This document shows, piece after piece, positions 7,070-55,898 of a stretch of DNA of 64,000 nucleotides (its first letter is position 1; the number at the start of each line of letters is the position of its first letter). Made by a program: the position numbers and the translations under genes. The stretch lies in contig NZ_JBALDC010000040.1 in NCBI RefSeq assembly GCF_036917575.1, forward strand, positions 83 through 64,082. The letters are read 5' to 3'. Below the pieces are notes generated by a model. It did not search any database and was not told the origin of the DNA. It worked only from the letters and a program-made list of their open reading frames with translations. The DNA is from Nostoc sp. GTDB taxonomy: Bacteria > Cyanobacteriota > Cyanobacteriia > Cyanobacteriales > Nostocaceae.

Positions 7070-7915
7070 TTACTCCCCAGTCTCGTGAAGGAAAACTGCT
7101 GCAATCCGACTTGATGATAATAGTTGTTTAGTAGCTAGCCATATAAAAAGTGGAATAGTCTTTGCATAGCGGCCGCAAAGTCGGCGCGGTTCTTGAATCC
7201 ATCGATATAGCCATTCAAGTCCTAAGTCTCGAACTATGCGGGGTGCCCGCTTATGAATTCCGGCATAAACTGGGAAAACTCCACCCAGTCCAATCATTAC
7301 AGCTTGTATTTTGCCCTTATGTTGAGCTATCCAATTTTCTTGTTTGGGACATCCCAGAGAAACTAAAACAGCGTTAGCACCACTAGAGTTAATCTTTTTA
7401 ACCAAAGTTTCGTCTTCAATTTCCGTTAGAGGACGAAAGGGTAGAGGTTCCATCGCCGCAATCTTTATCTGCGGAAATTCTTTCTCTAATCTGTTTTGCA
7501 TCCTAGACAGAATTTCTGTTTGGGAACCTACAAAGAAAATGCTTAGATTTTGTGTTTGAGTTCGCTGACACAATGCCAAAAAAATATCCATCCCTGCCAC
7601 ACGGTCTTGGCAAAATGCTCCCATTTTTCGCATCATCCATACCAGAGGCATACCATCAGGAGTAACTATATCTGCATTTCGCAATATGGTGGCAAACTCT
7701 GGATTCCAATGGGCTTCAATAAGCATGTGTACATTGGCTACATACACAGTTTTGCTTTCACGCCTACTTGCCCACTTCAGTATTGTTTGTATCTGCTGGT
7801 CAAACCGTAAAGCAGTAATAGGAAAATCAAGCACTTTTTTAGTAGGTAGAAGCACTCTCGCCACCATCAATAACTCCTGTATCCAAGAAAACAATTCATA
7901 GATTACCCAAACCAA
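7070..7915 (-). CDS. WecG/TagA/CpsF-family glycosyltransferase
   Basis: Motifs VANVHMLIEA, DIVTPDGMPLVW, SLGCPKQENWI, GLGGVFPVYAG and LEWLYRWIQEPRR are present. The true start is probably the internal Met at about 7867 (MVARVLLPTKK...). Confidence 0.85.
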   Translation of the reverse strand: MVWVIYELFSWIQELLMVARVLLPTKKVLDFPITALRFDQQIQTILKWASRRESKTVYVANVHMLIEAHWNPEFATILRNADIVTPDGMPLVWMMRKMGAFCQDRVAGMDIFLALCQRTQTQNLSIFFVGSQTEILSRMQNRLEKEFPQIKIAAMEPLPFRPLTEIEDETLVKKINSSGANAVLVSLGCPKQENWIAQHKGKIQAVMIGLGGVFPVYAGIHKRAPRIVRDLGLEWLYRWIQEPRRLCGRYAKTIPLFIWLATKQLLSSSRIAAVFLHETGE

Positions 7916-8417
7916 TCCAAATTATTTAATAATTCGGATTGGATGACTCCTGACTTTTTGTAGGCTTGTGTCATTGTTGGAAGTTAACACGTGGAGGTGC
8001 AATTGGCTTTTAGTATACTTTTAGCTTAATCGGTAATACTAGAATTATTTGCTGCTGTGTCTTAGCTTACTGTTTTATGTTAAGGATTTTAGACATTGCT
8101 TGACAAAATTCATACTTCCTTCATAATTGATTTTTAGTTAGTTCATCCAAGCATTACAATTGCAATAAATTCCTAGATAAATGCTGTATATTAAGTAGTA
8201 TATAGTACTTAGCTTCTTAAGTAAGAAAGTAAAATGCTAGTTATTTAGTCTGCTGATTTTATACGTAAATATGCGCTTAAGAGCTTGAATTAAAATTAGT
8301 ATATGTTAAAGAACGGCTAATAACTTTTGATTACAATTTACAAATTTATGACAGATTTAATTTAATCTCTGTACTGATGAAAAATCTCTAGATTTTATTT
8401 TTCTCTGAAATAAAAGC

Positions 8418-8452
8418 CCAAAAAATAAGGGAAAGATAAATTTATCTTTCCC
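8418..8452 (-). terminator. strong intrinsic terminator about 195 nt downstream of tRNA-Leu
   Basis: Perfect 24-nt palindrome gggaaagataaatttatctttccc (8429-8452). On the minus strand it is followed by ttattttttg. Confidence 0.6.
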
Positions 8453-8645
8453 TGCTCTCTCGTTTTTGTTATTGTCTGGCTTGTTACTTTCTTTAAGTTT
8501 TTGGCGTAACATTTGCCTTTGCTTTTTCAGTTGACGCTTCCTAGCAGAACCGCCTCTACCTTTATCATTTCTGCCTTCTTTACGGGGAGATTCCCATCTT
8601 TTCAGGCGCATAAATTTTTTACCTCTTTAGCAACTTGTTTAGTAG

Positions 8646-8729
8646 TGGGCAGGAGGAGAATCGAACTCCTATGACCGTAAGGCCGCCACATTTTGAGTGT
8701 GGTGCGTCTACCAATTCCGCCACCCGCCC
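8646..8729 (-). tRNA. tRNA-Leu (anticodon CAA), class II with long variable arm
   Basis: Reverse complement: GGGCGGGTGGCGGAATTGGTAGACGCACCACACTCAAAATGTGGCGGCCTTACGGTCATAGGAGTTCGATTCTCCTCCTGCCCA. The anticodon stem is CCACA/TGTGG with loop CTCAAAA. Confidence 0.9.
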
Positions 8730-8835
8730 TTATATCTAATCTTAACTAGTATACACTAAATTAAGAGATTTTGTAACAAGTATGAAAATTATTTCTCAAA
8801 GTTTTGCTGGAATAATAGTTTTCAGAATCTCCAGC

Positions 8836-10014
8836 TTAAAGGCGTGGCAGGTTCAATAAACTAGGGTCAATATCCTGTATTTTGGCACAGCCGCTAAGGG
8901 CCATTCCTACATTTAACTCATCTTGCAGCAGTGAAATGATATGAGATACGCCGATTTGTCCGGCTACCGCTAGTCCCCATAAAATAGGTCGTCCGATCAG
9001 TACTGCTTTTGCTCCTAATGCCAGAGCTTTGAGAATGTCTGTGCCTCTACGAATGCCTCCATCCAACACGACTTCTACTTTACCATCGACTGCGGCTACT
9101 ATTTCAGTCAGGGCATCTAAAGAAGCGATCGCACCATCAAGTTGTCTGCCACCATGATTGGAAACAACAATTGCTTTGGCTCCATATTCTACAGCCCGCA
9201 CAGCATCATCTGGGCGTAAAACTCCTTTGATGACTAAAGGTAGCCCAGATAATGACTGCAACCATTCTAAATCGTCCCAAGTGACTGCTGGGTTGAGCTG
9301 TTGGGCAAAATAGGTAAATAACCCAGATTCACCTTTTTCATGGGAAATATCTAGCCCTGAGATGCTCGCAAGATTAGCCAGATGTAAGTCTTGCGGTAAG
9401 GCAAACTCATTACGTCTATCTCTCTCGCGCTGTCCGAGAACGGGTGCATCTACAGTGAGACAAAGTGCTTTGTAGCCTGCTTTATCAGCTTTTTCTACCA
9501 AAGCGCGAGTTAATCCCCGATCTTTATGGATATAAAGCTGGAACCATCGTAGAGAATCTGGAAACTGATTACACGCAGTCGCCACTTCTTCAATGCTCTT
9601 TGTTGCCATTGTACTTAACACCATGCCCACACCAGCTGATGCAGCAGCTAAAGCTGTGGCAACTTCTCCGTCTGGATGGGCTAGACATTGAAAAGCCATC
9701 GGTGCAATTAACATAGGTAGTTGCAGGGGTTCTCCTAAAATGGAAGTACTTAGATTGCGATCGCTCACATCGACTAATATCCGAGGTCGCAGCTTGACTC
9801 GCTCAAAAGCAGCACGATTATCTCGCAATGTGATTTCGTCCCAAGCACCACTGCTGTAGTAATCAAGTGTCGTTTGAGACAAATGTTTTTTTGCTAGCTG
9901 TTCGTACTCAAAAAGGTTGATGGGTTGAAAGCGATCGTCTGTAGATAAGTAGGTAGACATAATTAAATCTAAGATAAAACTTTTGTTCGTAGTCAGCGAT
10001 TTATCGCTCTGCAT
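8836..10014 (-). CDS. FMN-dependent alpha-hydroxy-acid oxidase (L-lactate/glycolate oxidase family)
   Basis: Family motifs are present: WFQLY, SNHGGRQLD, VLDGGIRRGTDILKALALGA. The likely true start is Met19 (MSTYLSTDD, about 9960). Confidence 0.9.
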   Translation of the reverse strand: MQSDKSLTTNKSFILDLIMSTYLSTDDRFQPINLFEYEQLAKKHLSQTTLDYYSSGAWDEITLRDNRAAFERVKLRPRILVDVSDRNLSTSILGEPLQLPMLIAPMAFQCLAHPDGEVATALAAASAGVGMVLSTMATKSIEEVATACNQFPDSLRWFQLYIHKDRGLTRALVEKADKAGYKALCLTVDAPVLGQRERDRRNEFALPQDLHLANLASISGLDISHEKGESGLFTYFAQQLNPAVTWDDLEWLQSLSGLPLVIKGVLRPDDAVRAVEYGAKAIVVSNHGGRQLDGAIASLDALTEIVAAVDGKVEVVLDGGIRRGTDILKALALGAKAVLIGRPILWGLAVAGQIGVSHIISLLQDELNVGMALSGCAKIQDIDPSLLNLPRL

Positions 10015-10433
10015 AAGATTTTAAATGGCTAGAGCCGCTGACTACGATTATTCCTTGTCAAGGCTTTTAGGATAGTTGTATTTATTTTTACTCACTTGGT
10101 TAGCGATCGCTCAACTGAATTTATGTACTGAGGTGTTGCTCAAACAGTATAAAAATTGCTCCCAAAAAAAAGACCTTTGCTTTGCGCCAAAAGTCTTTCC
10201 GTTTCAGAACGTTGTAAAATTTATAAGCAACGTAAAACGCTGATATGGTTAATTTAGTGGCTTCTATGCCATGAACGCAAAAATAACAACCCAATTACCA
10301 ATTACATACTGACCATTATTATTACCCTTATACTAAAAATGCGTAGGCGCAGCCCGCCGCAGGCATCGCCAACATTTAAGTATAGACCCAGAAATCTCAT
10401 CCTGCAACCAAAACTTCGTCTTAATGCAAGGTT

Positions 10434-10667
10434 TTAGGAGAAATTTTCCCAGGATTGGGCAACTAATTGAGTTAACCAGCGACGTTGTTGCTGATCCAGG
10501 AGTGGATCGTCTGCTAACAACTGAGCGGTCAATTCTTCCAAAGATTGACCCTGAGCGCGGACAATTTTAATGACTCCAGCGATCGCACTGGCAACTAGTT
10601 CTTCATCAATTGGCTGTTGTCGCAGAGCGATAATTTCTTGGGGACTGTCTGGAATGGGATAATTCAT
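10434..10667 (-). CDS. hypothetical small protein
   Basis: 77-aa ORF with non-repetitive composition. It is divergent from the next gene. No family was recognised. Confidence 0.45.
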   Translation of the reverse strand: MNYPIPDSPQEIIALRQQPIDEELVASAIAGVIKIVRAQGQSLEELTAQLLADDPLLDQQQRRWLTQLVAQSWENFS

Positions 10668-10827
10668 GGCGTGGGTTTACAGAAATACAAAATGAACAAT
10701 AACTTTGACAAATTCTTAAAATTTCTTCACTGAATCTTTACGAAACTAATAGGGCGGAGTGTACCTTACTTTATGTCTTAAGAAAATCTGTCTTAGTGAA
10801 TAAATTGATGGGAGATGTCAGGAAAAA

Positions 10828-12972
10828 ATGAAAGAAATACTTTATTTAGAAGTTCCAACTCCAGATATAGAATCTGTGCGTAGTTGGTTACAAACAGATT
10901 TTGAACCTGGAAATGGAGAAAAAGTGCTTACCTCGGAAGGCTTTCGCCTTAAAATAGCTAGTAGCACCACACCTGCTGGAGTGGCTTTTTCCGAAAACTT
11001 GTCTATAGAACTTTCGGTATTTATCTGGTCGGTGCAACGAACTACCTACTTGAAAGTGTTTCGCTGGTCAGAACAACCCTTTCCCAGTGAAAAACAAATT
11101 CTGCAACGCTTGACCAAAGAAATCAGAAGCCGTTTTCCGCATCATTACCCAGAACCGCCAGCAATTGATTTATCCCAGCAATCAATATTTGCCGCACTCG
11201 GCTCTACTTATCCCCTTACCGTCAAGTATTTTCAGAAAATGCCCAACGGTGAATATGACCTAACTCGTGCCTATTGGTGGGAACAACGATGGCGCGAAGG
11301 GGTGCAGAATCCGCAGCAGCCGCGTCGAGTGGTGTTTTCCAGTCAAAGGGACTGGGGACTGGGGACTGGGGACTGGGGAAAAGGTAATCCCAATACCCAA
11401 TCTTTAATCCCTAATTCCCAGTACGACATCATCTATATTGGCGGCGCATTAGGCGTAATCCATGCAGCACTAATGGCGAAACTGGGATACAAAGTCTTGC
11501 TGGTGGAACGAATGCCCTTTGGGCGGATGAACCGAGAATGGAATATTTCCCGCGACGAGATTCAAAGCTTAGTTAACTTGGGTTTAATCACCCCCGCTGA
11601 GTTAGAAACCATCATTGCCAGGGAATACAAAGATGGATTTAATAAGTTTTTTGATGCTAATAATCCAGTCAAACTGCGATCGCCCATCCTCCACACACCC
11701 ACAGTCCTAAATTTAGGCTTGGATTCCGAAAAATGGCTCCAAATGTGTGGGCAAAAACTGCAAGCCGCAGGCGGTGAAATTTGGGATGAAACAGAGTTTA
11801 TCCGTGCAGATATTGATATATCACAGGTAGTTTTACAAGTCAAGCACTTGCCCAGTCAGATTGAGAAGCAAGTAAGTGGACGATTGCTAATAGATGCAAT
11901 GGGAACTGCATCCCCGATCGCTTGGCAATTAAATGGTGGTCGTGCCTTTGATAGTGTCTGTCCAACAGTGGGAGCGGCAGTTGAGAGCGGATTTGAGCCG
12001 GGAGTATGGGATTCCCAATATGGGGACGTTCTTTATAGTCATGGGGATATTTCACGGGGAAGGCAGTTAATTTGGGAATTGTTTCCCGCAGCAGATGATG
12101 AACTGACGATTTATTTATTTCATTACCACGAAGTTAATGCTGAAAATCCTGGTTCTTTGCTGGAGATGTACGAGGACTTTTTCACGATTTTGCCAGAGTA
12201 TCGCAGATGCGATATGGACAAATTGGTGTGGAAGAAGCCGACATTTGGGTATATACCAGGGCATTTTAGTGTGGGAAGTCGCGATCGCACAGTTGCCTTC
12301 GATCGATTGATAGCGATCGGTGATGCGGCATCACTCCAATCTCCCCTCGTTTTCACAGGTTTTGGTTCCTTAGTTCGCAACTTAGAGCGCTTAACAACGC
12401 TGTTGGATACTGCCCTCAAACATGAGTTGTTGAGTTTCCGCCACTTAAACCAAATTCGCGCCTATCAAACCAACGTTTCCGTGACTTGGCTCTTTTCCAA
12501 AGGCATGATGGTACCCACAGGGAAATTTTTACCACCGCAACGAATTAACGCCATGCTCAATACCTTTTTTGGGCTATTAGCAGACGAACCGCTAGAGGTG
12601 GCAGATAACTTCATCAAAGACCGATGTGATTGGTTAACCTTTAACCGTTTAGCACTGAAAGCCGCTTATAAAAATCCTGCCTTGCTTTTATGGATTTGGG
12701 AACTTGCTGGCCCTAGAGATTTAGTGCGATGGCTTGGTAGTTATTTCAACTTCGGTCGTCATGCCCTGGTTAGTGCTTTATTAAGTCCGTGGTTCTCACG
12801 CTTCTTGAACCGAGTAGGTTTTTGGCTAGAACCCCGGAATCCAGGCTTGTGGCTGTGGTTATTGGCGATTAATTATGCGATCGCCACAGGCAAACCGCGA
12901 TCGCCCAGCCAGGTAGCAAAAACCAACCCAGAAGCCATAATTCCGAAGTCAGAAGCAAGGATTCTGAATTAA
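10828..12972 (+). CDS. FAD-dependent oxidoreductase with about 195-aa N-terminal extension; possibly CruA-type lycopene cyclase
   Basis: 714-aa ORF. A Rossmann dinucleotide motif DIIYIGGALGVIHAALMAKLGYKVLLVE begins near aa 200, and the C-terminal segments are hydrophobic. The CruA assignment is from memory of domain architecture only. Confidence 0.8.
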   Translation: MKEILYLEVPTPDIESVRSWLQTDFEPGNGEKVLTSEGFRLKIASSTTPAGVAFSENLSIELSVFIWSVQRTTYLKVFRWSEQPFPSEKQILQRLTKEIRSRFPHHYPEPPAIDLSQQSIFAALGSTYPLTVKYFQKMPNGEYDLTRAYWWEQRWREGVQNPQQPRRVVFSSQRDWGLGTGDWGKGNPNTQSLIPNSQYDIIYIGGALGVIHAALMAKLGYKVLLVERMPFGRMNREWNISRDEIQSLVNLGLITPAELETIIAREYKDGFNKFFDANNPVKLRSPILHTPTVLNLGLDSEKWLQMCGQKLQAAGGEIWDETEFIRADIDISQVVLQVKHLPSQIEKQVSGRLLIDAMGTASPIAWQLNGGRAFDSVCPTVGAAVESGFEPGVWDSQYGDVLYSHGDISRGRQLIWELFPAADDELTIYLFHYHEVNAENPGSLLEMYEDFFTILPEYRRCDMDKLVWKKPTFGYIPGHFSVGSRDRTVAFDRLIAIGDAASLQSPLVFTGFGSLVRNLERLTTLLDTALKHELLSFRHLNQIRAYQTNVSVTWLFSKGMMVPTGKFLPPQRINAMLNTFFGLLADEPLEVADNFIKDRCDWLTFNRLALKAAYKNPALLLWIWELAGPRDLVRWLGSYFNFGRHALVSALLSPWFSRFLNRVGFWLEPRNPGLWLWLLAINYAIATGKPRSPSQVAKTNPEAIIPKSEARILN
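11351..11378. repeat. STRR heptamer array (ACTGGGG x4) inside a coding region
   Basis: The run gggactggggactggggactggggactgggg is translated in-frame as DWGLGTGDWG within the 10828-12972 ORF. Confidence 0.9.
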
Positions 12973-26129: not shown

Positions 26130-27221
26130 ATGGAAATCGGCGTTCCCAAGGAAAATAAGGATCAAGAGTTTCGGGTAGGGTTAAGTCCTTCTAGCGTGCG
26201 GGTGCTGCGAGAAAATGGTCATAGCATCTGTGTCGAGACGCAAGCAGGTAATGGTGCTGGATTTTCTGATGATGATTATAGAGTTGCTGGAGCCGAGATT
26301 GTCCCTACATCAGAAATGGCTTGGAATCGGGAATTGGTTGTTAAAGTCAAAGAGCCTCTGACCTCTGAGTATAAATTTTTGCAAAAAGGGCAGATATTAT
26401 TTACCTATTTACATTTAGCAGCCGATCGCAAATTGACAGAGCATTTAATTGATTGTGGCACTTGTGCGATCGCTTACGAAACTGTAGAACAACCTGGTGC
26501 TAACAGATTACCTTTACTCACTCCCATGAGCGTAATTGCTGGTCGGCTAGCAGTACAATTTGGGGCCAGATTCTTAGAACGTCAACAAGGTGGTAGAGGT
26601 GTACTTTTGGGCGGTGTGCCTGGAGTTAAACCAGGCAAAGTAGTAATTTTAGGTGGCGGTGTTGTCGGCACAGAAGCAGCTAAAATTGCTGTAGGCATGG
26701 GTGCGAACGTACAGATTTTAGATGTGAGTGTCGAGCGCTTATCTTATTTAGAAACACTCTTTGGCTCTAGAGTCGAATTGCTTTACAGCAACTCTGCTCA
26801 TATTGAAGCCGCAGTCATTGAAGCCGATTTGCTTATTGGTGCAGTTTTAGTGTTAGGACGTAGAGCGCCTATACTAGTATCTCGCGAATTTGTCAAGCAA
26901 ATGCGTCCTGGTTCGGTAATAGTTGATGTTGCCGTTGACCAAGGCGGTTGCATAGAAACCTTACACCCTACATCCCACACAAATCCGGTATACCTTGAAG
27001 AGGGTGTGGTGCATTATGGCGTTCCTAATATGCCAGGAGCAGTACCTTGGACAGCAACTCAGGCACTTAATAATAGTACATTACCTTATGTTGTCCAGTT
27101 GGCGAATTTTGGAATTTTAGCACTGGAAGTTAACCCAGTATTAGCTAAAGGTGTGAATGTGCAGAATCATCGCTTAGTGCATCCTGCTGTGCAAGAAGTG
27201 TTCCCTGATTTGATAAATTAA
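26130..27221 (+). CDS. ald: alanine dehydrogenase
   Basis: 363-aa ORF beginning MEIGVPKENKDQEFRVGLSP. NAD motif VVILGGGVVGTEAAKIA. AlaDH/PNT family throughout. Confidence 0.95.
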   Translation: MEIGVPKENKDQEFRVGLSPSSVRVLRENGHSICVETQAGNGAGFSDDDYRVAGAEIVPTSEMAWNRELVVKVKEPLTSEYKFLQKGQILFTYLHLAADRKLTEHLIDCGTCAIAYETVEQPGANRLPLLTPMSVIAGRLAVQFGARFLERQQGGRGVLLGGVPGVKPGKVVILGGGVVGTEAAKIAVGMGANVQILDVSVERLSYLETLFGSRVELLYSNSAHIEAAVIEADLLIGAVLVLGRRAPILVSREFVKQMRPGSVIVDVAVDQGGCIETLHPTSHTNPVYLEEGVVHYGVPNMPGAVPWTATQALNNSTLPYVVQLANFGILALEVNPVLAKGVNVQNHRLVHPAVQEVFPDLIN

Positions 27222-27522: not shown

Positions 27523-28129
27523 ATTGCAATTAACTAAAATCCCTATTAGGGATTGAAACTCTTTAATGTCATCCTTGAAGACCAGACAGGGATAATTGCA
27601 ATTAACTAAAATCCCTATTAGGGATTGAAACCTGATAAAATATCATTCAGCGTCAATGGCTGAAATTGCAATTAACTAAAATCCCTATTAGGGATTGAAA
27701 CTAGTTCTAACTCCGGGTAATCGAGCATTGTTCCATTGCAATTAACTAAAATCCCTATTAGGGATTGAAACAAAAATCACAATATGATGAGGGTTGCTAC
27801 CTCCTATTGCAATTAACTAAAATCCCTATTAGGGATTGAAACTTTTATTGGGTCTTGAATCACCTTATCAATTAAATATTGCAATTAACTAAAATCCCTA
27901 TTAGGGATTGAAACAGATATTCAATAGCTTTTTGTTCCGTCAAACAAATTGCAATTAACTAAAATCCCTATTAGGGATTGAAACATTACAATGCCTATTC
28001 CTGAGTCTCAAAAACAATTAATTGCAATTAACTAAAATCCCTATTAGGGATTGAAACTTTTTGTTTTTGAGACAACCTTAAATTAACTTTTAATTGCAAT
28101 TAACTAAAATCCCTATTAGGGATTGAAAC
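27523..28129 (+). CRISPR. CRISPR array, 9 identical 37-nt repeats and 8 spacers (33-36 nt); no cas genes in the window
   Basis: The repeat ATTGCAATTAACTAAAATCCCTATTAGGGATTGAAAC starts at 27523, 27595, 27665, 27735, 27806, 27878, 27948, 28021 and 28093. It has an internal 7-bp hairpin AATCCCT/AGGGATT. The 3' ATTGAAAC end suggests + strand transcription. Confidence 0.95.
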
Positions 28130-28520: not shown

Positions 28521-29942
28521 TTAACCAAAATGCTGAATAATTGCTTCGGCAAATTCAGAACATTTTAAGGGTTTAACTGGCGGTTCTAGCAATCGGGCCA
28601 AATCGTAAGTGACTTGACTACTCGCGATCGCATCGCTTAAACCTTTCTTAATTAGGTCTGCCGCTTCTTGCCAACCCATAAATTCCAGCATCATCACACC
28701 AGATAAAATCACTGAACCAGGATTAATCCGATCTAAACCGGCGTGTTTCGGTGCAGTACCGTGTGTAGCTTCAAATATGGCACTAGAATCACCAATATTT
28801 GCTCCTGGCCCCATTCCCAATCCTCCAACAATGGCGGCGGCGGCATCAGACAAGTAATCGCCGTTCAAGTTCATCGTCGCCAAAATCGAATATTCATCCG
28901 GTCTGGTTTGGATTTGTTGAAAAATACTGTCAGCAATTCGGTCATTCACCAAAACTTTATCTTTCCATTTTCCCTCGCCGTGGGTTGCCCAAATTGAGTT
29001 AAGAACAGTTTCAACTTCCTTGACAATTTGCGCTTTTTTCTCTTCAGTGAGAGCATCAAACCCCGGATCGATCTCGCGGGCATTTTCTTCCAAGGAAATA
29101 TTTGGATTTTTTTCCTTGTTACTTAAAATCCAAGATTCCCGTTCGGTAACAGTTTCTTGGCGAAATTCGCTCGTTGCTAGTTCATAACCCCAATCGCGGA
29201 AAGCGCCTTCGGTGTACTTCATGATGTTGCCCTTATGCACCAAAGTCACTTGTTGCTTGTGTTTGGGCAATAGCAAAGCGTGTTTAATCGCACGTCTAAC
29301 TAGACGCTGGGAACCAGTTTTACTGATGGGTTTGATGCCAATACCAGAATCAAGAGGGATGCGTTTTTTCCCATGTTCTGGGGTACTGGGGATCAGTTCT
29401 TCATTGAGAATTTTAATTAAGCGATCGCCGATTTCGCTACCTTGTCGCCACTCAATGCCTAAATAAATATCTTCTGTATTCTCCCGATAAACAATTACAT
29501 CTAGCTTTTCAGGATTTTTGTGGGGTGAGGGCGTACCTGCATAGTAACGGCAAGGACGCACGCAGGCATACAAGTCAAAAATTTGTCGCAGTGCCACATT
29601 TAAAGAACGAATTCCCCCACCAACGGGAGTAGTTAAAGGCCCTTTAATAGCTACACCATATTCTTCAATTGCCGTAAGAGTGTCTTGAGGTAAATACTGG
29701 TAAGTACCATATAAATCACAAGCTTCATCACCAGCGTAAACCTTGAACCAACTAATTTGACGCTGACCCTTATATGCTTTGGCTACCGCAGCATCTAGCA
29801 CTTTTTGGGTAGCAGGCCAAATGTCTATACCTGTACCATCGCCACGAATAAAGGGGATAATTGGATTGTCCGGTACAGTTGGTTCACCATTTTTGAAGGT
29901 GATTTTTGCTCCGGTTCCGGGGGGGGTAATCTTTTCGTACAT
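28521..29942 (-). CDS. icd: NADP-dependent isocitrate dehydrogenase
   Basis: 473-aa ORF beginning [38 protein letters not shown]. Motifs include LNVALRQ and [13 protein letters not shown]. Confidence 0.95.
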
Positions 29943-37538: not shown

Positions 37539-37970
37539 ATGAATAAAGCAGGCGAAATTCGCGTAATAGCTTTGGGGCTAATTCGGAATGGCGATGGCAT
37601 ATTTCTTTCTGAAGGCTACGATCCCGTAAAACAACAAACATTTTATCGGGCTTTAGGCGGCGGGGTCGAATTTGGCGAAACCAGCCGTGCCGCCTTAGAA
37701 CGAGAGTTTCAAGAGGAAATTCAGGCAGATTTAACAAATATTAAATATCTCGGTTGTATAGAGAACCTGTTTACATTTAATGGTAGGCAAGGTCATGAAA
37801 TTATTCAGCTTTTTCAATGTGACTTTGTTGATTCCAAATTTTATCAACTGGAAAGTTTAATTTTTTCCGAATCGCCACATCATAAACATAGAGCGTTATG
37901 GATAGATATATCTCGCTTGAAATCTGGGGAATTCAGATTAGTACCTGAAGTCTTTTTTGAATATTTATAA
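37539..37970 (+). CDS. NUDIX hydrolase
   Basis: Nudix box GGGVEFGETSRAALEREFQEEIQA, matching Gx5Ex7REuxEExGu. Confidence 0.85.
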   Translation: MNKAGEIRVIALGLIRNGDGIFLSEGYDPVKQQTFYRALGGGVEFGETSRAALEREFQEEIQADLTNIKYLGCIENLFTFNGRQGHEIIQLFQCDFVDSKFYQLESLIFSESPHHKHRALWIDISRLKSGEFRLVPEVFFEYL

Positions 37971-38364
37971 ATCATTTGGAAATCGCACTCAGCAAAAACA
38001 CAATATACTGATTGAGTTAATTCTGCTTTAGATTTTGCCACCATTCCTGCACAATAAGCACTCATCTTATGATCAAAATTGGGAATCAGGGCGGCCGCAT
38101 CATGTCAACAAGCAAAGTCTATTCTCAATAGAACTAAAAACAATGTCATTAACTCTTGCTTATTGCGAAAATTTTAGGCGATCGCTTTGGGGCTTAAAAA
38201 ATAATTAAGCGCGAAATCCTGATTTTTTCGTTGGTTCTTAACCTTCGTTGTGATCAAGAGTAATTTAGATGCGTTTGCCCTGAATTGGGAATGCAATCGC
38301 TCCCCTAGCCGAAGTAGTAGGGTTTGAGTAGAAGCAAGTGTTGAGTTGATTCAAGAAACCCAAA

Positions 38365-40362
38365 CTACGTTGAAGGCGATTGCACTAATGCCTCAGCTAC
38401 ATAGAGAATTGGATATTTTTTAAGAATGGGTTCTATAGTGATTTCTGTCAAATGTACACTTAACTCAAGCATATAACCTGTTTCTGTAAAGCAATAAAGG
38501 GCTGTAAATGAGTCTGTATTGGCAGCTTGCCATAGTCCGATAGTACGACCAATACGTTTTAGTTCTAAGTAAACTTTTTCATCATTTGTAATGAACTTGA
38601 GGCAATTTGGTTCGCTTCCTTTGATAGTTACTATTCCAGATTCTAGTTCAATTTGTTTGCCTTCTAGAGTGAGCTTGTTACTGCGAATCGCTTCCCACCC
38701 AAAATGACCTATCATCTCGGCAACTTTATACCCTTGCTTATATAGCTCTTCTGCTTTTTTATGCTCTTTCTGGACACTTCGCTCAAGTTCAGCCCGAATA
38801 TGGTATGGATATCCAGCGTCAGCAGCGTCGTAAGTTCCTGTATGTTCTTTTAAAAGTTTAAGACCAGCAGCCGGAAGAGGATTCCATAAATGAAGATTTG
38901 CAATATTAACCTTAGCCACAGATATTCCAGCTTCAGCTGCTTTAGCATACGCAAGATATGCAAGTGAATAAAGTTTTAATTCAGAAAACGCACGCCCTAG
39001 ATTATTTGCAGCAGTTCCTTGAACATCAACCTGATCTGCACATTGAGCGAAATAAGTAAGCAAAGAAGACCATTTATGATCGAGAGCCAACTCTGTGAGG
39101 GCGTTGAGCATAATTGAAGAGTCAGCTTTATCGCTTAAACCAGTTAATAAAATAACTAGTTTCTCAAGAAAGTGAGGCTTTTGGTCAAGATTTTGCCACG
39201 TTTCTACAGTTTCAGTTCTAAGGTCTCTATCTTCACTTACCATTGCTTGTCGTAAGTTGTTAAGTGCTATCTCTTGCTCACCGATTTTGAATCTCTTCTT
39301 AGCTAAATAAAGAGTTGCCGGGTTAGAAAATAAAGTAGCATTTTTGGCTGTAGCTAGACGTAGGCATTCTTCATAATAGGAGATGGAAGCAGCAACACGA
39401 GATTCAAATAAGCCAAGCCAAAACTGGCAATGGTAAGTATTACGTAATTCAGGAGCTAACGACTCTAGCTCCTTTAGAGGGTTACGTTCTTCCCGATCAC
39501 TATTTAGCAATCTCACAATTTTAATATTTGCTTTATCTTCGTTGGTGGATGCAGTTTCTTCAAGCCGATCAAATATCGTGTTAGCTTTCTCTACTTCTCC
39601 ACGTTGCAAAAGCTTAATTGCTTGAGGTAGAGATGAAGACTGTTCTATGTTTTCTTCAACAAGCTCTGATAGAGATGAAGACTGTTCTATGTTTTCTTCA
39701 ATAATCTCTATTTTTTGATAAGCTTCAATTTGTTTAGAAAAAGTTTGATATCGTTGACTTAAACGTGTCTTAATATTACCACCGACCGCCTGAGCGACTG
39801 CAATTAAGAGATTTTTAACTTCTTCTCGATCAGATGCTCGCACTGTTTGATAGTCAGCCATAGTACTAGCTAGCTCACTTGGGCTTGTACCAACTAGTAA
39901 GGGTGCATACAACTGATTGCGTCCCCAAGCAGCTCCAGCTTCAAAGAAAAGCCACTCACGTTCCTTGGATTGCTGAGTAATGATAGCAATAAATGCTCGT
40001 GAAGATTGTGCGGCTGCTTGTATCTGGGGTTTGTAACCGATGTTAGATGGACGTAGACCACCTGCCCCAGCAACAAAAACGTGAGGTCGAGGTTCTATTG
40101 CTGCCTCAATCAGTTCTTTAAGAGCAACTGCAAGACTTTGATCGGGGCTAGTACGATAGGAAATAAATACCTCAAATTCACTGGAAACCTTTTCAGTTTT
40201 GAAACTACTATTGCTTGACTGGCTTATTTGAACTACCGAGGATTGTAGAGATGCATGAACATTGTCTGACATAATTTGTTCTGAGCGGGCAGCCTTGTAA
40301 TAAGTTTTTTGAGCAGCAAGACCAAGTATAGCTTTCTGTTTTTCAGAAGCAATATAGTTCAC
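38365..40362 (-). CDS. TIR-domain protein fused to helical (TPR-like) repeats and an uncharacterised C-terminal domain
   Basis: The TIR-like block is FEVFISYRTSPDQSLAVALKELIE...HVFVAG...SSRAFIAIITQQSKEREWLFFEAGAAWG (aa about 62-150). The middle is helical-repeat and the C-terminal 130 aa are beta-rich. Alternative start at Met31 (40272). Confidence 0.8.
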   Translation of the reverse strand: MNYIASEKQKAILGLAAQKTYYKAARSEQIMSDNVHASLQSSVVQISQSSNSSFKTEKVSSEFEVFISYRTSPDQSLAVALKELIEAAIEPRPHVFVAGAGGLRPSNIGYKPQIQAAAQSSRAFIAIITQQSKEREWLFFEAGAAWGRNQLYAPLLVGTSPSELASTMADYQTVRASDREEVKNLLIAVAQAVGGNIKTRLSQRYQTFSKQIEAYQKIEIIEENIEQSSSLSELVEENIEQSSSLPQAIKLLQRGEVEKANTIFDRLEETASTNEDKANIKIVRLLNSDREERNPLKELESLAPELRNTYHCQFWLGLFESRVAASISYYEECLRLATAKNATLFSNPATLYLAKKRFKIGEQEIALNNLRQAMVSEDRDLRTETVETWQNLDQKPHFLEKLVILLTGLSDKADSSIMLNALTELALDHKWSSLLTYFAQCADQVDVQGTAANNLGRAFSELKLYSLAYLAYAKAAEAGISVAKVNIANLHLWNPLPAAGLKLLKEHTGTYDAADAGYPYHIRAELERSVQKEHKKAEELYKQGYKVAEMIGHFGWEAIRSNKLTLEGKQIELESGIVTIKGSEPNCLKFITNDEKVYLELKRIGRTIGLWQAANTDSFTALYCFTETGYMLELSVHLTEITIEPILKKYPILYVAEALVQSPST

Positions 40363-40492
40363 TTTAAAAAAGAAAATGAGGGGAGGTGTGAAATTGCGCG
40401 ATCGCTCTCCACAACAATAACTATTGTTTAACTACTGCTTAAAGAATAGCCACTTTAGCGATCGCACCTTGCATTCTCGCAGTAATTTGAAA

Positions 40493-40700
40493 TTAAAGTA
40501 AATCTTCTTCAGATAGCTGGGCTATTTTCATTAAAGCTTTCAAGATTCCAACTTTCAAATCTTGATTGCAGTGAACAGGAATTGACAGGATTTTTTCTAC
40601 TTAAGGGTTTTCATAAATATGATGACTGCCAGTAATTATCAGGGTTTGATCTACATCAATTGCCGTTAAGGTTTGGAGTTTTGCACTCCTGACTAGTCTA
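40493..40700 (-). pseudogene. hicA-like toxin remnant with in-frame TAA and no credible start
   Basis: The minus-strand frame reads ...LLLESRLVRSAKLQTLTAIDVDQTLIITGSHHIYENP*VEKILSIPVHCNQDLKVGILKALMKIAQLSEEDLL*. The internal stop is at 40601-40603. The GSH...P.H...DL..G.L pattern is HicA-like. Confidence 0.5.
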
Positions 40701-40720
40701 GATTCCAGTAATAAATCAAC

Positions 40721-40750
40721 ATTAGGGGCGTACAGATATACGCCCCTAAT
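40721..40750 (-). terminator. hairpin downstream of the GH57 gene
   Basis: A perfect 10-bp stem pairs attaggggcg with cgcccctaat around a 10-nt loop. It lies 32 nt after the stop at 40782. The U-tract is weak. Confidence 0.5.
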
Positions 40751-54098: not shown

Positions 54099-54592
54099 AG
54101 CCAAGACGAAATCACTAAAATTTATCCAAGCTAAATTGCAGTTATTAAAAATGTTGTAATGCCTGCCTGAATTTAATTCAGCGTCACCCCAGCACATATT
54201 AGATTATTCATGAAACTTATCGCCACGCTACAGTCAGGCGTTTTCCCTACGTCGTTTTTTACGAGTTTATGAACAGGAGATTATTGTCTACGCTGTTTTC
54301 CATTGTTCCCAATATTTAGAAAAATGGCGTAGTTGCTTGCAATAGTTGGTTTTTGAGACTATAGATAAATCCATTATTTTAACTATTATCTGAAGAACTG
54401 TAACTCGTTCTTACGCAAATTATTAATACATTTGTATTTATTTAGTACAAAAATACCAATAAATTCAGATTTTTTACTTATTAATCCAACCACGTTTAGC
54501 CAAAATCAAAAATTCATATTAAGTAATTGACCCTTTTTTACTACTTCTGTGAAATCCTATAATAAGCAGGACTTTTGGCAGAGGGATTGAAG

Positions 54593-55069
54593 ATGGCTCT
54601 GACTCAAGGCGGACGGGCAAATAAATCTGGGAATATTTTAGAAGCAAATGTAGAAGCAATCTTGCATGGGCATAATTATTTCCAAGTAGGAAATTATGTT
54701 CAAAAAGAATTTATATTAAATGCTACTTTATTGCCAAAACGTTATGGCAAAGAAGTTTATATTGGCACTGGAATTTATCATACGTATCTAAAGGTTGATT
54801 TTTATGTTGTTGGCTCATCTGTAATGCCATCTGGTTTAATTTTCGAGTGCAAATGGCAAGAAAGCCCCGGTTCCGTTGATGAAAAGTTTCCTTACTTGAA
54901 CATGAATATTCAGCACTATTACCCTGCACCAACTATCGTAATTTTAGGTGGTGAAGGTATGCGAGAAGGTGCAAGCAAATGGTTGAAAGCAAGAGTTAAT
55001 GATAATCAGAATTTATTGGCAGTTTATAGCTTAGACAGATTCATTGCTTGGGCAAATAAAAATCTTTAA
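54593..55069 (+). CDS. short PD-(D/E)xK nuclease, DpnII/MboI-core-like putative restriction endonuclease
   Basis: 158 aa from ATG 54593 (the track starts at TTG 54575). It contains GGRANKSGNILEANVEAIL and KVDFYVV...LIFECKWQ (D...ExK). It is convergent with, and overlaps, the methylase. Confidence 0.6.
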   Translation: MALTQGGRANKSGNILEANVEAILHGHNYFQVGNYVQKEFILNATLLPKRYGKEVYIGTGIYHTYLKVDFYVVGSSVMPSGLIFECKWQESPGSVDEKFPYLNMNIQHYYPAPTIVILGGEGMREGASKWLKARVNDNQNLLAVYSLDRFIAWANKNL

Positions 55070-55898
55070 AAGATGTAATTAATAGTTCGTCAATCATCCC
55101 TCTGTTTTTTATATTTGAGTTAATTGAACGCACTGCTTTAATTTTATAAGTTTCAAAATTGATCTCACTATAAATTTTTCTAATAAATTCACTATTAGAA
55201 TTGCATATCATAACTTTGACACCACGACTTGCTAACTCTGCACAAACATCTCTTAAAAGTTCCTGGTCTTTTTTACTAAAACAATTTTGACTATAAGCAG
55301 TGAAATAGCTAGTATCACTGATAGGATGGTAGGGCGGATCAAAAAATACAAAGTCATCACTGCTAGTCGCATGATTTAGGACTTCTGTAAAATCTGCTTG
55401 CTTAATTTCTGCATGGAAAAGCGTTTCGGAGGCTGATTTAAGTAAAATCTCAGCACAAATATTGGGATTATTATATCTGCCTAAAGGTACATTAAATTTG
55501 CCCTGTGAGTTTACTCGATAAAGACCATTAAAACAAGTCTTATTCAGATAAATTAGACGAGCCGCTTTTTCTATATCACTACCACCAGAGTTGTTTCTGA
55601 TACTGTAGTAATAATCTTTATCATGTCGGATTTTATGCTCTTTTAATAGAGAAATTAATTCCTCAACACGATCTCTAACACAACAATAAGTGTTAATTAG
55701 TTCGGCATTAATATCAGTTAAAATCGCTGCATTTGGTTGGAGATAGAAAAAAACAGCACCACCACCTAAAAATGGCTCATAGTAATTTTTATAACTCTTG
55801 GGAAAATAAGGAATATATTGCTGTATTAACCGATTTTTACCCCCTGCCCACTTCAAAAATGGACGCGGGCTAATTTCGTTAGGGATTTGAATTACCAT
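55041..55898 (-). CDS. dam: Dam-family (D12 class) N6-adenine DNA methyltransferase
   Basis: Contains PFLKWAGGKNRL, EPFLGGGAVFF and the catalytic FFDPPY. Confidence 0.9.
   Translation of the reverse strand: MVIQIPNEISPRPFLKWAGGKNRLIQQYIPYFPKSYKNYYEPFLGGGAVFFYLQPNAAILTDINAELINTYCCVRDRVEELISLLKEHKIRHDKDYYYSIRNNSGGSDIEKAARLIYLNKTCFNGLYRVNSQGKFNVPLGRYNNPNICAEILLKSASETLFHAEIKQADFTEVLNHATSSDDFVFFDPPYHPISDTSYFTAYSQNCFSKKDQELLRDVCAELASRGVKVMICNSNSEFIRKIYSEINFETYKIKAVRSINSNIKNRGMIDELLITSFKDFYLPKQ

What the first reader, a model, noticed from the sequence alone, without database searches (positions are those of the whole stretch)
37539..40700. TIR-domain protein with helical repeats and an unknown C-terminal domain, flanked by a NUDIX hydrolase and a dead hicA: candidate NAD-linked defence gene
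The 665-aa ORF at 38365-40362 (-) has an N-terminal block that reads like a bacterial TIR domain. The block is FEVFISYRTS...HVFVAG...AFIAIITQQSKEREWLFFEAGAAWG, with a Glu in the position where TIR NADases carry their catalytic Glu. About 300 aa of TPR-like helical repeats follow, and then a beta-rich C-terminal domain of about 130 aa that I cannot assign to any family. No ThsA-, STING-, NTPase- or Cap-like partner gene is present, so it does not fit Thoeris, CBASS, Avs or the other TIR systems I know. It sits between core genes (DUF3531-like/NUDIX and GH57). A decayed hicA toxin lies immediately upstream and the local sequence is visibly more AT-rich, which is consistent with an accessory insertion. 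The convergent NUDIX gene (37539-37970) is notable because TIR enzymes make ADP-ribose-derived products and NUDIX enzymes hydrolyse such nucleotides. That link is inference only.
Basis: partly seen in the sequence, partly recalled or inferred. Interest (0 to 1): 0.7.

Follow-up and report, generated by a model that had tools for sequence, protein, structure and literature searches.

The report
Stand-alone TIR–TPR accessory gene in Nostoc
This is an intact, rare accessory gene that fuses a probable NAD-cleaving TIR enzyme to a repeat "sensor" and an unknown beta-rich tail; it most likely works alone as a suicide-type anti-phage switch, and the NUDIX gene next to it is an ordinary core gene with no special link to it.

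Summary
The ORF is real, though the true start is the ATG at 40272 (635 aa, not 665). Its N-terminal domain is a TIR domain with an invariant W-x-x-x-E catalytic motif. A TPR solenoid follows, then one long helix and an all-beta tail of about 100 aa with no significant structural match. The hicA remnant is real, and the AT-richness is real but mild.

The gene is a rare, patchily distributed accessory gene: 14 loci in about 185,000 species genomes (cyanobacteria, Myxococcota, Planctomycetota). In Nostoc it is one alternative cargo in a hotspot rich in toxin-antitoxin genes and IS elements beside Mfd and/or NUDIX. Four of nine Nostocales copies are disrupted. No partner gene is conserved in any lineage.

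The suggested NUDIX link is refuted. NUDIX is a core Nostocales gene that is present without this gene, and this gene occurs without NUDIX.

The best reading is a self-contained TIR sensor-effector of the abortive-infection type, resembling E. coli TIR-II, SpbK and DSR2. This is inferred, not shown. It belongs to a known kind of system, with an unassigned C-terminal module and a sister family that has a transmembrane head in place of TIR.

The parts
38365..40272 (-). CDS of the TIR-TPR-beta-tail protein (635 aa plus stop); true start is the ATG at 40272
   Evidence: ORF list. 100% identical to the annotated 635-aa Nostoc protein P0001. Family N-termini align at this Met. Coordinates verified.
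39763..40173 (-). TIR domain, residues 34-170 (alpha/beta, flavodoxin-like)
   Evidence: Pfam TIR_2 at 29.4 bits on the isolated domain, and 23/23 family members hit TIR_2. PADLOC TIR-TM model E 1.2e-8. Fold matches to TIR-STING 6wt7 (139 columns, rmsd 3.6 A, prob 1.0) and TIR-APAZ 8i87. dN/dS 0.05-0.22.
39922..39960 (-). Signature motif REWLFFEAGAAWG; W107-x-x-x-E111 (E111 codon 39940-39942) is the putative catalytic Glu
   Evidence: R105, W107, E111, A112, G113, A114, A115 are invariant in 28 sequences. The motif aligns in register with RPWVKYE of the ThsB-like TIR structure 8wcf.
39634..39762 (-). Linker: helix 171-198, then a disordered stretch (198-212) that contains a 42-bp in-frame tandem duplication (39628-39709)
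   Evidence: AF2 pLDDT below 50 at 198-212. TRF reports period 42, 2.0 copies, 95% match.
38845..39633 (-). TPR-like alpha-solenoid, residues 214-476
   Evidence: AF2 helices at pLDDT above 90. Top Foldseek PDB hits are CTPR proteins and the OGT TPR (E 3e-5 to 4e-4). dN/dS 0.26-0.54.
38764..39018 (-). Most conserved non-TIR block, residues 419-503: last TPR/Sel1-like repeats plus the loop EH.G.FDA..P.YP..VR..LE with invariant S436, A438, G449, N456, A458, H477, P489
   Evidence: Family alignment A1. Function unknown. A role as oligomerisation or ligand site is inference only.
38686..38805 (-). Single long helix, residues 490-529
   Evidence: AF2 models. This is the only post-TPR part that aligns with the TM-headed sister family (hhalign 72%, E 3.3e-5).
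38404..38655 (-). All-beta C-terminal domain, residues 540-623 (8 antiparallel strands); fold unassigned
   Evidence: Dedicated AF2 model pLDDT 85.2. Best PDB fold hit E 0.048 and best viral hit E 0.017, only generic up-and-down barrels. Least conserved part: mean column identity 23% against 61% for TIR. dN/dS 0.27-0.88.
38293..40478 (-). Block of DNA homology shared with all Nostoc copies, with the same boundaries in different genomic contexts
   Evidence: blastn against L002 and L007-L012.
40479..40702 (-). hicA pseudogene. The 3' 159 bp (40479-40637) are homologous to an intact 69-aa HicA in L007/L008, with a GAA-to-TAA stop; the 5' part is unrelated and has no start codon
   Evidence: Translation. 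Pfam HicA_toxin E 3.1e-10. Comparison with the intact hicBA in L007/L008.
37971..38292 (.). Variable spacer between the gene block and NUDIX. The equivalent interval holds a 72-aa/ParE-like TA pair in L002 and hicBA plus parE-like pairs in N. punctiforme; no such ORFs remain here
37539..37970 (+). NUDIX hydrolase gene: a neighbour only, a core Nostocales gene, not part of the system
   Evidence: Pfam NUDIX E 2e-10. 1,392 homologues at E<=1e-20, at 80-94% identity across Nostocales genera. Present next to the hotspot without the TIR gene.

Best explanation
The gene encodes a self-contained sensor-effector protein of the abortive-infection (conflict-system) type. The N-terminal TIR domain is the effector, most likely an NAD+ glycohydrolase that uses the invariant Glu111. 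The TPR solenoid, the conserved 419-503 block and the long helix form the regulatory and assembly scaffold. The fast-evolving all-beta C-terminal domain is the likeliest specificity or sensing element.

Proposed mechanism: in the resting state the TIR heads are kept apart or inactive. When the C-terminal part binds a trigger (probably a cyanophage protein), the protein self-associates. This brings TIR domains together to form composite active sites, as in other TIR enzymes. NAD+ is then depleted and the infected cell stops growing or dies.

No second gene is needed. The gene is dispensable cargo in a TA/IS-rich variable hotspot of Nostoc chromosomes, and the adjacent NUDIX gene is unrelated.

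Shown: the domain anatomy, the TIR fold and motif conservation, purifying selection on the TIR domain, the absence of a conserved partner, and the gene's rarity, mobility and frequent decay.

Inferred: NADase chemistry, activation by oligomerisation, the trigger, and the anti-phage role.
For: TIR assignment:
- TIR_2 matches in 23/23 members, best E 3e-9.
- Fold matches to TIR-STING and TIR-APAZ.
- W-x-x-x-E aligns with a ThsB-like TIR structure, and the profile also matches C. elegans TIR-1/SARM1 at lower significance.
- The motif is invariant.
- The TIR domain has the lowest dN/dS (0.05-0.22), against 0.27-0.88 for the C-terminal domain.

Single-gene unit:
- Clustering of neighbour ORFs over 19 loci found no gene family that recurs with it across lineages.
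- No Thoeris, CBASS or Avs component is present in the window.

Accessory and mobile character:
- Only 33 close clusters among 5.8 billion proteins and 14 loci in 185,579 species genomes.
- The same 2.2-kb block occurs in at least three different Nostocales contexts.
- It fills the slot that holds an IS-interrupted WD40 gene in N. punctiforme.
- It is surrounded by hicBA, vapBC-like and parDE-like pairs and IS fragments.
- 4 of 9 Nostocales copies are disrupted.
- GC3 z is about -2.

Modularity:
- A sister family keeps the TPR and long helix but has a transmembrane head instead of TIR. It sits on a conjugative element and on a mobile region containing conflict-type genes.
- One member carries an extra Mrr-type nuclease head.

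Precedent:
- E. coli TIR-II, a single-protein TIR+TPR system whose phage defence needs the TIR catalytic residue (PMC11350192).
- SpbK, a single-protein TIR NADase (PMC12847820).
- DSR2, a SIR2 NADase with a solenoid sensor (PMC11850899).
Against: - There are no functional data of any kind.
- The defence-island signal is weak. Among 149 neighbour ORFs in 12 non-Nostoc loci there is one strong SspH hit and a few generic helicase- or kinase-type hits. One locus (L021) is purely housekeeping.
- No relatives were found on sequenced phages, plasmids or IMG/VR viral contigs.
- The full-length protein falls just under Pfam's TIR_2 cutoff (26.5 against 28 bits).
- PDB sequence matches are marginal (best E 0.0021).
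- Homology of the beta tail between the TIR-headed and TM-headed families could not be shown, so 'head swapping' is only partly supported.
- A conserved Glu does not prove NADase activity. Some TIRs make signals or act on nucleic acids.
Confidence: 0.55

Rival explanations
1. The TIR domain is a signal generator rather than a killer. On activation it makes a cyclic-ADPR-type or other nucleotide signal that is read by an effector encoded elsewhere in the genome, a Thoeris-like system split in trans. Alternatively it acts on a substrate other than NAD+, such as nucleic acids.
For: The closest solved sequence relative is a ThsB-like TIR. 3 of 23 members also hit Pfam ThsB_TIR, and there is a weak PADLOC ThsB hit. 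ThsB proteins are signal-producing TIRs. Many TIR signalling systems were recently described, some with TPR-containing receptors (10.64898/2025.12.03.692087).
Against: No effector gene is linked in any of about 20 loci from four phyla. No Thoeris effector model hits anywhere in the window. Signalling TIRs are almost always operonic with their effector. The protein carries its own large sensor-like module, which fits the single-protein NAD-depleting systems better.
Confidence: 0.15
2. It is not an immune gene. It would be a cellular regulatory or scaffold protein, for example in programmed cell death, kin discrimination or development in filamentous and social bacteria, with the TIR domain acting as an interaction module or a metabolic NAD regulator.
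For: The family is found mainly in morphologically complex bacteria (Nostoc, Leptolyngbyaceae, Myxococcota, Gemmataceae), the group where Kaur et al. place apoptosis-like systems (PMC7159879, PMC8195603). The defence-island signal is weak, and some contexts are housekeeping.
Against: The distribution is extremely patchy even within Nostoc, and 4 of 9 copies are disrupted. This argues against a needed cellular role. The invariant W-x-x-x-E enzymatic motif argues against a pure adaptor. The gene's location in a TA/IS hotspot and its alternative-cargo behaviour are typical of conflict genes.
Confidence: 0.15
3. The copy in this window is a decaying or silent relic. It has an intact reading frame but is no longer expressed or functional, like the hicA next to it.
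For: Four related Nostoc copies carry stops, a frameshift or a truncation. The flanking TA genes seen in relatives have been deleted here, and hicA is dead. No promoter-like site above chance was found. Whole-gene dN/dS is fairly high at 0.31-0.50.
Against: The 635-codon frame is fully open with every invariant family residue in place. dN/dS of the TIR domain between this copy and other intact copies is 0.10-0.20, so it has been under purifying selection until recently. The promoter scan is a crude sigma-70 consensus and says little for cyanobacteria.
Confidence: 0.1
4. One reading: the TIR protein and the convergent NUDIX hydrolase form a functional pair, in which NUDIX degrades or tunes the ADP-ribose-derived TIR product.
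For: They are adjacent in the window and in L002, L009, L010 and L011. It is chemically plausible. The NUDIX protein gives a weak hit to the PADLOC candidate PDC-S07 (E 1.3e-7) and to NAD+ diphosphatase models far below their cutoffs.
Against: NUDIX forms a fixed pair with DUF3531 and belongs to a conserved GidB-ABC-TPR-DUF3531-NUDIX block in genomes without the TIR gene, N. punctiforme PCC 73102 and KVJ20. It has 1,392 homologues against about 9 Nostocales TIR copies. In KVJ20 the two genes are on different contigs. Dendronalium and all non-Nostoc members have no NUDIX neighbour. The genes are convergent, not co-transcribed. In relatives, TA genes lie between them.
Confidence: 0.03

Closest known systems
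E. coli TIR-II (single-protein TIR + TPR anti-phage system; PMC11350192)
   Same: TIR and TPR are on one polypeptide. It works as a single-gene system, and defence depends on the TIR catalytic residue. It is the closest functional precedent.
   Different: About 30% of TIR-II proteins also carry an ATPase domain, which is absent here. TIR-II is reported as abundant and also phage-borne, whereas this family is rare and has no phage or plasmid relatives. This family has a distinctive long helix plus beta tail.
Kaur/Aravind 'variable effector + TPR + GreA/B-C + PIN' stand-alone conflict genes (PMC8195603, Fig. 2K)
   Same: It has a swappable N-terminal effector, with TIR among the options. The C-terminal region contains TPR and is constant in layout but evolves fast. 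The genes are mostly stand-alone without conserved neighbours, and the archetype is cyanobacterial.
   Different: The tail here is one helix and an all-beta domain. There is no GreA_GreB or PIN Pfam hit, no such fold match, and no alpha/beta PIN-like secondary structure.
SpbK (B. subtilis) and DSR1/DSR2: single-protein NADase sensors (PMC12847820, PMC11850899)
   Same: One polypeptide joins an NAD+-cleaving head (TIR or SIR2) to a sensor region (an alpha-solenoid in DSR2). A phage structural protein activates it and causes abortive infection. This is the mechanism proposed here.
   Different: No detectable sequence relationship. The PADLOC spbK model does not hit this protein, only a distant TIR relative, P0145. 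DSR2 uses SIR2, not TIR. The triggers of those systems are known; here none is.
Thoeris (ThsB TIR + ThsA or other effectors), including type VIII ThsI / BcTpr (CMP-hydrolase + TPR-S sensor)
   Same: The TIR head is closest in sequence to ThsB-like TIRs. TPR repeats are used in TIR-linked immunity.
   Different: There is no effector gene next to it in any locus. In Thoeris type VIII the TPR is on the receptor/effector, not on the TIR. There is no TPR-S (PF20308) or CMP-hydrolase match.
Avs / bacterial NLR-like STAND proteins with TIR heads and TPR sensors
   Same: The logic is effector head plus repeat sensor, and the sensor evolves fast.
   Different: No NTPase (STAND) module lies between head and repeats. 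No P-loop domain appears in Pfam or in the AF2 model.

Membership tests
TIR domain (Pfam TIR_2, PF13676) | Profile match at or above the curated cutoff | tested here: met
   Isolated domain 29.4 bits against cutoff 28. 23/23 family members match, best E 3e-9. The full-length protein scores 26.5 bits, just under the cutoff.
TIR domain (Pfam TIR_2, PF13676) | Flavodoxin-like alpha/beta fold superposable on solved TIR domains | tested here: met
   AF2 model pLDDT about 85-94 in residues 35-165. Foldseek hits 6wt7 TIR-STING (139 columns, rmsd 3.6 A, prob 1.00) and 8i87_G TIR-APAZ.
Catalytic (NADase-type) TIR | Conserved Glu on the alpha-C helix, four residues after a conserved Trp (W-x-x-x-E) | tested here: met
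   W107 and E111 are invariant in 28 sequences. They are in register with W-V-K-Y-E of ThsB-like 8wcf in the HMM and hhalign alignments. That this is the catalytic position in TIR NADases is established knowledge, not tested here.
Catalytic (NADase-type) TIR | NAD+ cleavage activity | not testable with these tools
   Needs biochemistry.
Thoeris | TIR (ThsB) gene adjacent to an effector gene (ThsA: SIR2/Macro/SLOG, or another Ths effector) | tested here: not met
   No such gene in the window (PADLOC on 35 ORFs). No recurrent neighbour in 19 loci.
Thoeris type VIII ThsI / BcTpr architecture | CMP-hydrolase/DrHyd-type N-terminal domain plus TPR-S (PF20308) repeats, usually beside a TIR gene | tested here: not met
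   The N-terminal domain is TIR_2. There is no TPR-S hit at E<=1 and no neighbouring TIR gene.
Effector-TPR-GreA/B-C-PIN conflict genes (Kaur et al. 2021) | GreA/B C-terminal-like domain followed by a PIN domain after the TPRs | tested here: not met
   No GreA_GreB or PIN Pfam hits. The tail is one helix and 8 beta-strands. There are no GreA or PIN fold matches.
Effector-TPR-GreA/B-C-PIN conflict genes (Kaur et al. 2021) | Stand-alone gene with a variable N-terminal effector and a TPR region | tested here: met
E. coli TIR-II | TIR and TPR domains in one protein acting as a single-gene system | tested here: met
   Architecture shown. No partner gene.
E. coli TIR-II | Sequence homology to the validated TIR-II protein | not tested
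   No TIR-II sequence is held. tblastn against the phage and plasmid collections found nothing.
Avs / STAND NLR-like | Central STAND NTPase (NACHT / NB-ARC / AAA) module | tested here: not met
   No NTPase family in Pfam or NCBIfam. AF2 shows the TIR domain followed directly by a linker helix and the solenoid.
HicA toxin (the upstream remnant) | HicA_toxin profile match in an intact ORF next to hicB | tested here: not met
   The profile match is present (E 3.1e-10). However, only the C-terminal 40 model positions match, there is an in-frame TAA, no start codon and no hicB. An intact hicB-hicA exists in L007/L008. It is a pseudogene.

The most novel reading that the evidence does not exclude
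The TPR + conserved block + long helix + variable beta-domain module is a previously undescribed stand-alone invader sensor. It can be plugged onto alternative killing heads: a TIR NADase here, a membrane-spanning head in the sister family, and an added Mrr nuclease in one member. Its beta-domain would be a new fold that recognises a cyanophage or myxophage component. That would define a new single-gene defence family centred on multicellular-type bacteria.
Probability: 0.3. Interest if true: 0.55.

Novelty: new member of a known kind. Interest (0 to 1): 0.38.

Why it matters
If the prediction holds, this would be an uncharacterised family of single-protein TIR immune sensors in filamentous cyanobacteria, myxobacteria and planctomycetes. 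Anti-phage defence has hardly been tested experimentally in these groups. The family has a C-terminal domain of unknown fold that could reveal a new recognition mode.

It also marks the Mfd/NUDIX-adjacent interval as a variable hotspot for TA modules and accessory cargo in Nostoc, which could be used to find more such genes.

The general principle (TIR head plus repeat sensor acting alone) is already established in E. coli, so a specialist would not be surprised. The practical value is a clean, testable candidate and the removal of a tempting but false TIR-NUDIX link.

Tried and rejected
- Single-sequence PDB search with the TIR domain found nothing. Only the family profile gave marginal hits.
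- Pfam and NCBIfam on the full protein gave no TPR, Sel1, GreA, PIN, NTPase or TPR-S assignment. The Guanylin and SctY hits are noise.
- Fold searches of the C-terminal model against the PDB and the viral library gave nothing significant. A lipocalin/avidin-like description is only topological.
- At first I read P0021's Mrr_cat_2 as a replacement of the TIR domain. It is an addition in front of the TIR domain.
- At first I dismissed the TPR-only relatives (P0138 and others) as generic TPR hits. On reading the sequences, they form a coherent TM-headed sister family. Homology of their beta tails could not be shown.
- P0101 is a family member with a non-TIR N-terminus. That N-terminus looks like a mis-called or decayed start and was not used as evidence.
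- Searches for relatives on phages, plasmids and IMG/VR viral contigs were empty.
- The promoter/terminator scan was uninformative for the gene itself.
- The literature search for '8WCF' and 'TIR-TM' gave nothing useful.
- PADLOC on neighbours gives family counts only, so individual hits could not be assigned to loci. The exception is by inference: the SspH hit probably corresponds to the ScoMcrA_N gene in L006.

Full report
1. WHAT IS THERE

The public 635-aa Nostoc protein P0001 is 100% identical from the ATG at 40272. Family members from other lineages begin at the aligned 'MSD/MSE/MTD'. The CDS is therefore 38365-40272. All residue numbers below use the 635-aa form, and the coordinates were checked.

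An AlphaFold2 model built on a 28-sequence family alignment is confident (mean pLDDT 84.4). It shows:
- a disordered N-terminus (residues 1-33);
- an alpha/beta domain (34-170);
- a linker helix (171-198);
- a disordered stretch (198-212) that coincides with a 42-bp in-frame tandem duplication at 39628-39709;
- a helical solenoid (214-476);
- a loop, then one 40-residue helix (490-529);
- an eight-stranded all-beta domain (540-623).

2. THE N-TERMINAL DOMAIN IS A TIR DOMAIN WITH THE CATALYTIC-TYPE MOTIF

Pfam TIR_2 matches the full protein at E 9.5e-6 and 26.5 bits, just under the 28-bit cutoff. The isolated domain scores 29.4 bits. All 23 homologous domains that were scanned hit TIR_2 (best E 3e-9), and three also hit ThsB_TIR. 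PADLOC's TIR-TM model matches at E 1.2e-8.

In the fold search the TPR part dominates, but TIR-STING (6wt7; 139 columns, rmsd 3.6 A, probability 1.00) and TIR-APAZ (8i87) are also recovered.

A profile of the domain finds a ThsB-like 'Molecular chaperone Tir' structure (8wcf, E 0.0021) and C. elegans TIR-1/SARM1 (E 0.018). In the 8wcf alignment, RPWVKYE lines up with REWiFFE, and hhalign gives the same register.

F36, S38, Y39, D44, R105, W107, E111, A112, G113, A114 and A115 are invariant across 28 sequences from several phyla. W-x-x-x-E on helix alpha-C is the catalytic signature of TIR NADases. That is established knowledge and was not tested here.

The nearest TIR heads outside the family are all bona fide TIR_2 domains (35-54 bits). 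One of them matches the SpbK model.

3. THE REST OF THE PROTEIN

Pfam sees no TPR in this sequence. The best PDB fold matches of the model, however, are consensus-TPR superhelices and the OGT TPR domain (E 3e-5 to 4e-4), so 'TPR-like' is right.

The most conserved non-TIR part is the end of the solenoid plus the following loop (419-503). It carries invariant S436, A438, G449, N456, A458, H477 and P489. Its role is unknown. An assembly interface or a ligand site are guesses.

A dedicated model of the C-terminus (pLDDT 85.2) has no significant structural relative in the PDB (best E 0.048) or in the viral library (best E 0.017). Only generic up-and-down barrels appear.

This tail is the least conserved region, with mean column identity 23% against 61% for the TIR domain. 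Among intact Nostocales copies, dN/dS is 0.05-0.22 for the TIR domain, 0.26-0.54 for the TPR region and 0.27-0.88 for the tail. The enzyme head is constrained and the tail evolves fast.

4. DISTRIBUTION, CONTEXT AND MOBILITY

The family is small. There are 33 clusters at 90% identity among 5.8 billion proteins and about 65 full-length clusters at 50% identity among 1.84 billion representatives.

In 185,579 species genomes it was found at 14 loci: six Nostoc, Leptolyngbyaceae, Acaryochloridaceae, Labilithrix, Polyangiaceae, another Myxococcota, Gemmataceae, Fimbriiglobus, and a weak Nitrospira hit. The search pattern was strict, so this is a lower bound. Anaeromyxobacter also has a copy.

Clustering of all neighbour ORFs from 19 loci found no family that travels with the gene across lineages.

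Within Nostoc, the same 2.2-kb DNA block (window 40478 to 38293) has identical boundaries in every strain, while the surroundings differ:
- In L002, L009, L010 and L011 the NUDIX-DUF3531-TPR-ABC-GidB block lies downstream, as in the window.
- In L007 and L008 it does not.
- In Dendronalium the gene lies between GCV_T and cpcD.
- GH57 is not upstream of the gene in any other locus.

N. punctiforme PCC 73102 lacks the gene. Its NUDIX-to-Mfd interval holds hicBA, two parE-type pairs, a DDE transposase and an IS-split WD40 gene. In L002 the TIR-TPR gene sits exactly between the conserved 87-aa gene and the 72-aa/ParE-like pair, where N. punctiforme has the WD40 gene. L007 and L008 show Mfd, several TA pairs, the gene, a vapBC-like pair, an intact hicB-hicA and DUF29, plus IS fragments in L008.

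So the gene is one of several alternative cargos in a TA/IS-rich hotspot.

Of nine Nostocales copies, five are intact and four are disrupted: stop at codon 141, frameshift near 178, stop at codon 61, truncation at 395. Some of these are MAGs, so sequencing error cannot be excluded for the frameshift.

GC3 is 0.26 against 0.352 +/- 0.047 for the window's long ORFs. This is a mild compositional signal.

5. THE NEIGHBOURS

The hicA remnant is real (HicA_toxin E 3.1e-10, in-frame TAA, no start codon). Its 3' 159 bp are homologous to the intact 69-aa HicA of L007/L008.

NUDIX is a core Nostocales gene. It has 1,392 homologues at E<=1e-20, with 80-94% identical orthologues in Nostoc, Calothrix, Tolypothrix, Cylindrospermum, Anabaena and Nodularia. 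It is always paired with DUF3531, including in genomes without the TIR gene. In KVJ20 the two genes are on different contigs. The proposed TIR-NUDIX link is therefore an accident of the hotspot's position.

PADLOC on 35 window ORFs finds no Thoeris, CBASS or Avs component.

6. IS IT A DEFENCE GENE?

Direct evidence is lacking, and the context evidence is moderate.

In favour:
- Nostoc copies sit in TA-rich hotspots.
- A transposase fragment and a Multi_ubiq/E2/JAB/ThiF cluster lie nearby in Anaeromyxobacter.
- A ScoMcrA/SspH-type gene and many small hypothetical genes surround the gene in L006.
- ParE-type and other TA genes occur in L022.

Against:
- Only isolated PADLOC hits among 149 neighbour ORFs.
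- One fully housekeeping neighbourhood.
- No relatives on phages, plasmids or viral contigs.

A further argument comes from modularity. Six proteins from the representative search share the TPR region and long helix (E about 1e-16 over profile positions ~190-555). In place of the TIR domain they have an N-terminal hydrophobic segment, with 19-residue Kyte-Doolittle hydropathy of 1.84-2.88 against 0.64 for the window protein. They end in a beta-rich tail of similar size. hhalign confirms only the helix (72%, E 3.3e-5), so homology of the tails is not shown.

These TM-headed genes lie on a conjugative element, and on a mobile region with PIN, CyanoTRADDas_TM and ImmA/IrrE genes. One TIR-headed member carries an additional Mrr-type nuclease domain. 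Alternative 'killing heads' on one sensor-like body is the usual design of abortive-infection proteins.

7. COMPARISON WITH KNOWN SYSTEMS

- Single-protein TIR+TPR defence is already validated in E. coli as TIR-II. It needs the catalytic residue, and the authors report it as the most abundant TIR system (PMC11350192). I could not obtain its sequence, so homology is untested.
- Kaur et al. described stand-alone 'effector + TPR + GreA/B-C + PIN' genes with TIR among the heads (PMC8195603). The theme is the same, but the tail here has neither domain.
- Thoeris type VIII ThsI/BcTpr puts TPR-S on a CMP-hydrolase effector beside a TIR gene. There is no TPR-S or CMP-hydrolase signal and no TIR neighbour here.
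- Avs/NLR-like proteins need a STAND NTPase, which is absent.
- Mechanistically the closest analogues are SpbK and DSR2, which are single-chain NADases switched on by a phage structural protein (abstracts).

8. VERDICT

The best explanation (confidence about 0.55) is a self-contained TIR sensor-effector that depletes NAD+ when its TPR/beta-tail module detects a trigger. It is a new member of a known kind. Its C-terminal module is unassigned, and it may share a sensor body with a TM-headed sister family. Interest is moderate (0.38). It is a good, cleanly delimited experimental candidate in an under-studied host group, but not conceptually surprising.

Noticed in passing
window 27523-28129 (+): Orphan CRISPR array: nine 37-nt repeats (Rfam CRISPR-DR5, 58 bits each). 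It lies between an alanine dehydrogenase gene (26130-27218) and an isocitrate dehydrogenase gene (28524-29942), with no cas genes beside it, about 10 kb from the TIR gene.
   Followed up: partly
window 54575-55898: Probable type II restriction-modification pair: a PD-(D/E)XK nuclease (PDDEXK_11, 54575-55069 +, E 7e-46) converging on and overlapping a D12 Dam-like DNA methyltransferase (55041-55898 -, E 7e-65). The methyltransferase has the lowest GC (0.329) of the window's 33 long ORFs.
   Followed up: partly
window 40478/40479 junction; L007 9780-13483; L008 9826-12516: In the window the 3' end of hicA is fused directly to the 5' boundary of the TIR-TPR block. In L007/L008 the same hicA lies downstream of the block, in the order block, (vapBC-like pair in L007), hicB, hicA. 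The window order is a circular permutation of that order. This suggests either a tandem duplication followed by deletion, or a circular intermediate of a TIR-TPR + TA module.
   Followed up: partly
window 39628-39709 (-): 42-bp in-frame tandem duplication (EENIEQSSSLSELV, two copies) in the disordered linker between the TIR and TPR regions. It is present in the window and in L002, and absent in Dendronalium (L004) and P0006.
   Followed up: yes
P0138, P0141, P0148, P0150, P0159, P0164; loci L026, L027: Sister family of about 520-560-aa proteins. They have an N-terminal transmembrane-like segment instead of TIR, the same TPR + long-helix body, and a beta-rich tail. The family is found only in metagenomes, on a conjugative element and on a mobile region with PIN, CyanoTRADDas_TM and ImmA/IrrE genes. 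It has no PADLOC match.
   Followed up: partly
L024 (N. punctiforme PCC 73102, 7470-12900) compared with L002, L007, L008: The interval between the NUDIX gene and mfd is a variable hotspot in Nostoc. It is filled with different combinations of hicBA, parDE-like, vapBC-like and DUF433/PIN-like pairs, DUF29, IS elements and alternative cargo genes (WD40-repeat gene or TIR-TPR gene).
   Followed up: partly
P0021 (Logan contig, 802 aa): One family member carries an extra N-terminal Mrr_cat_2 restriction-endonuclease domain (E 6.5e-25) in front of the TIR domain. This is a single occurrence on a 5.8-kb contig, and a fusion artefact was not excluded.
   Followed up: no
window 40721-40750: Perfect 13-bp-stem hairpin followed by a T-rich tail, just downstream of the GH57 gene stop (40782). 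It is probably that gene's terminator and marks the edge of the core gene before the hicA remnant.
   Followed up: no
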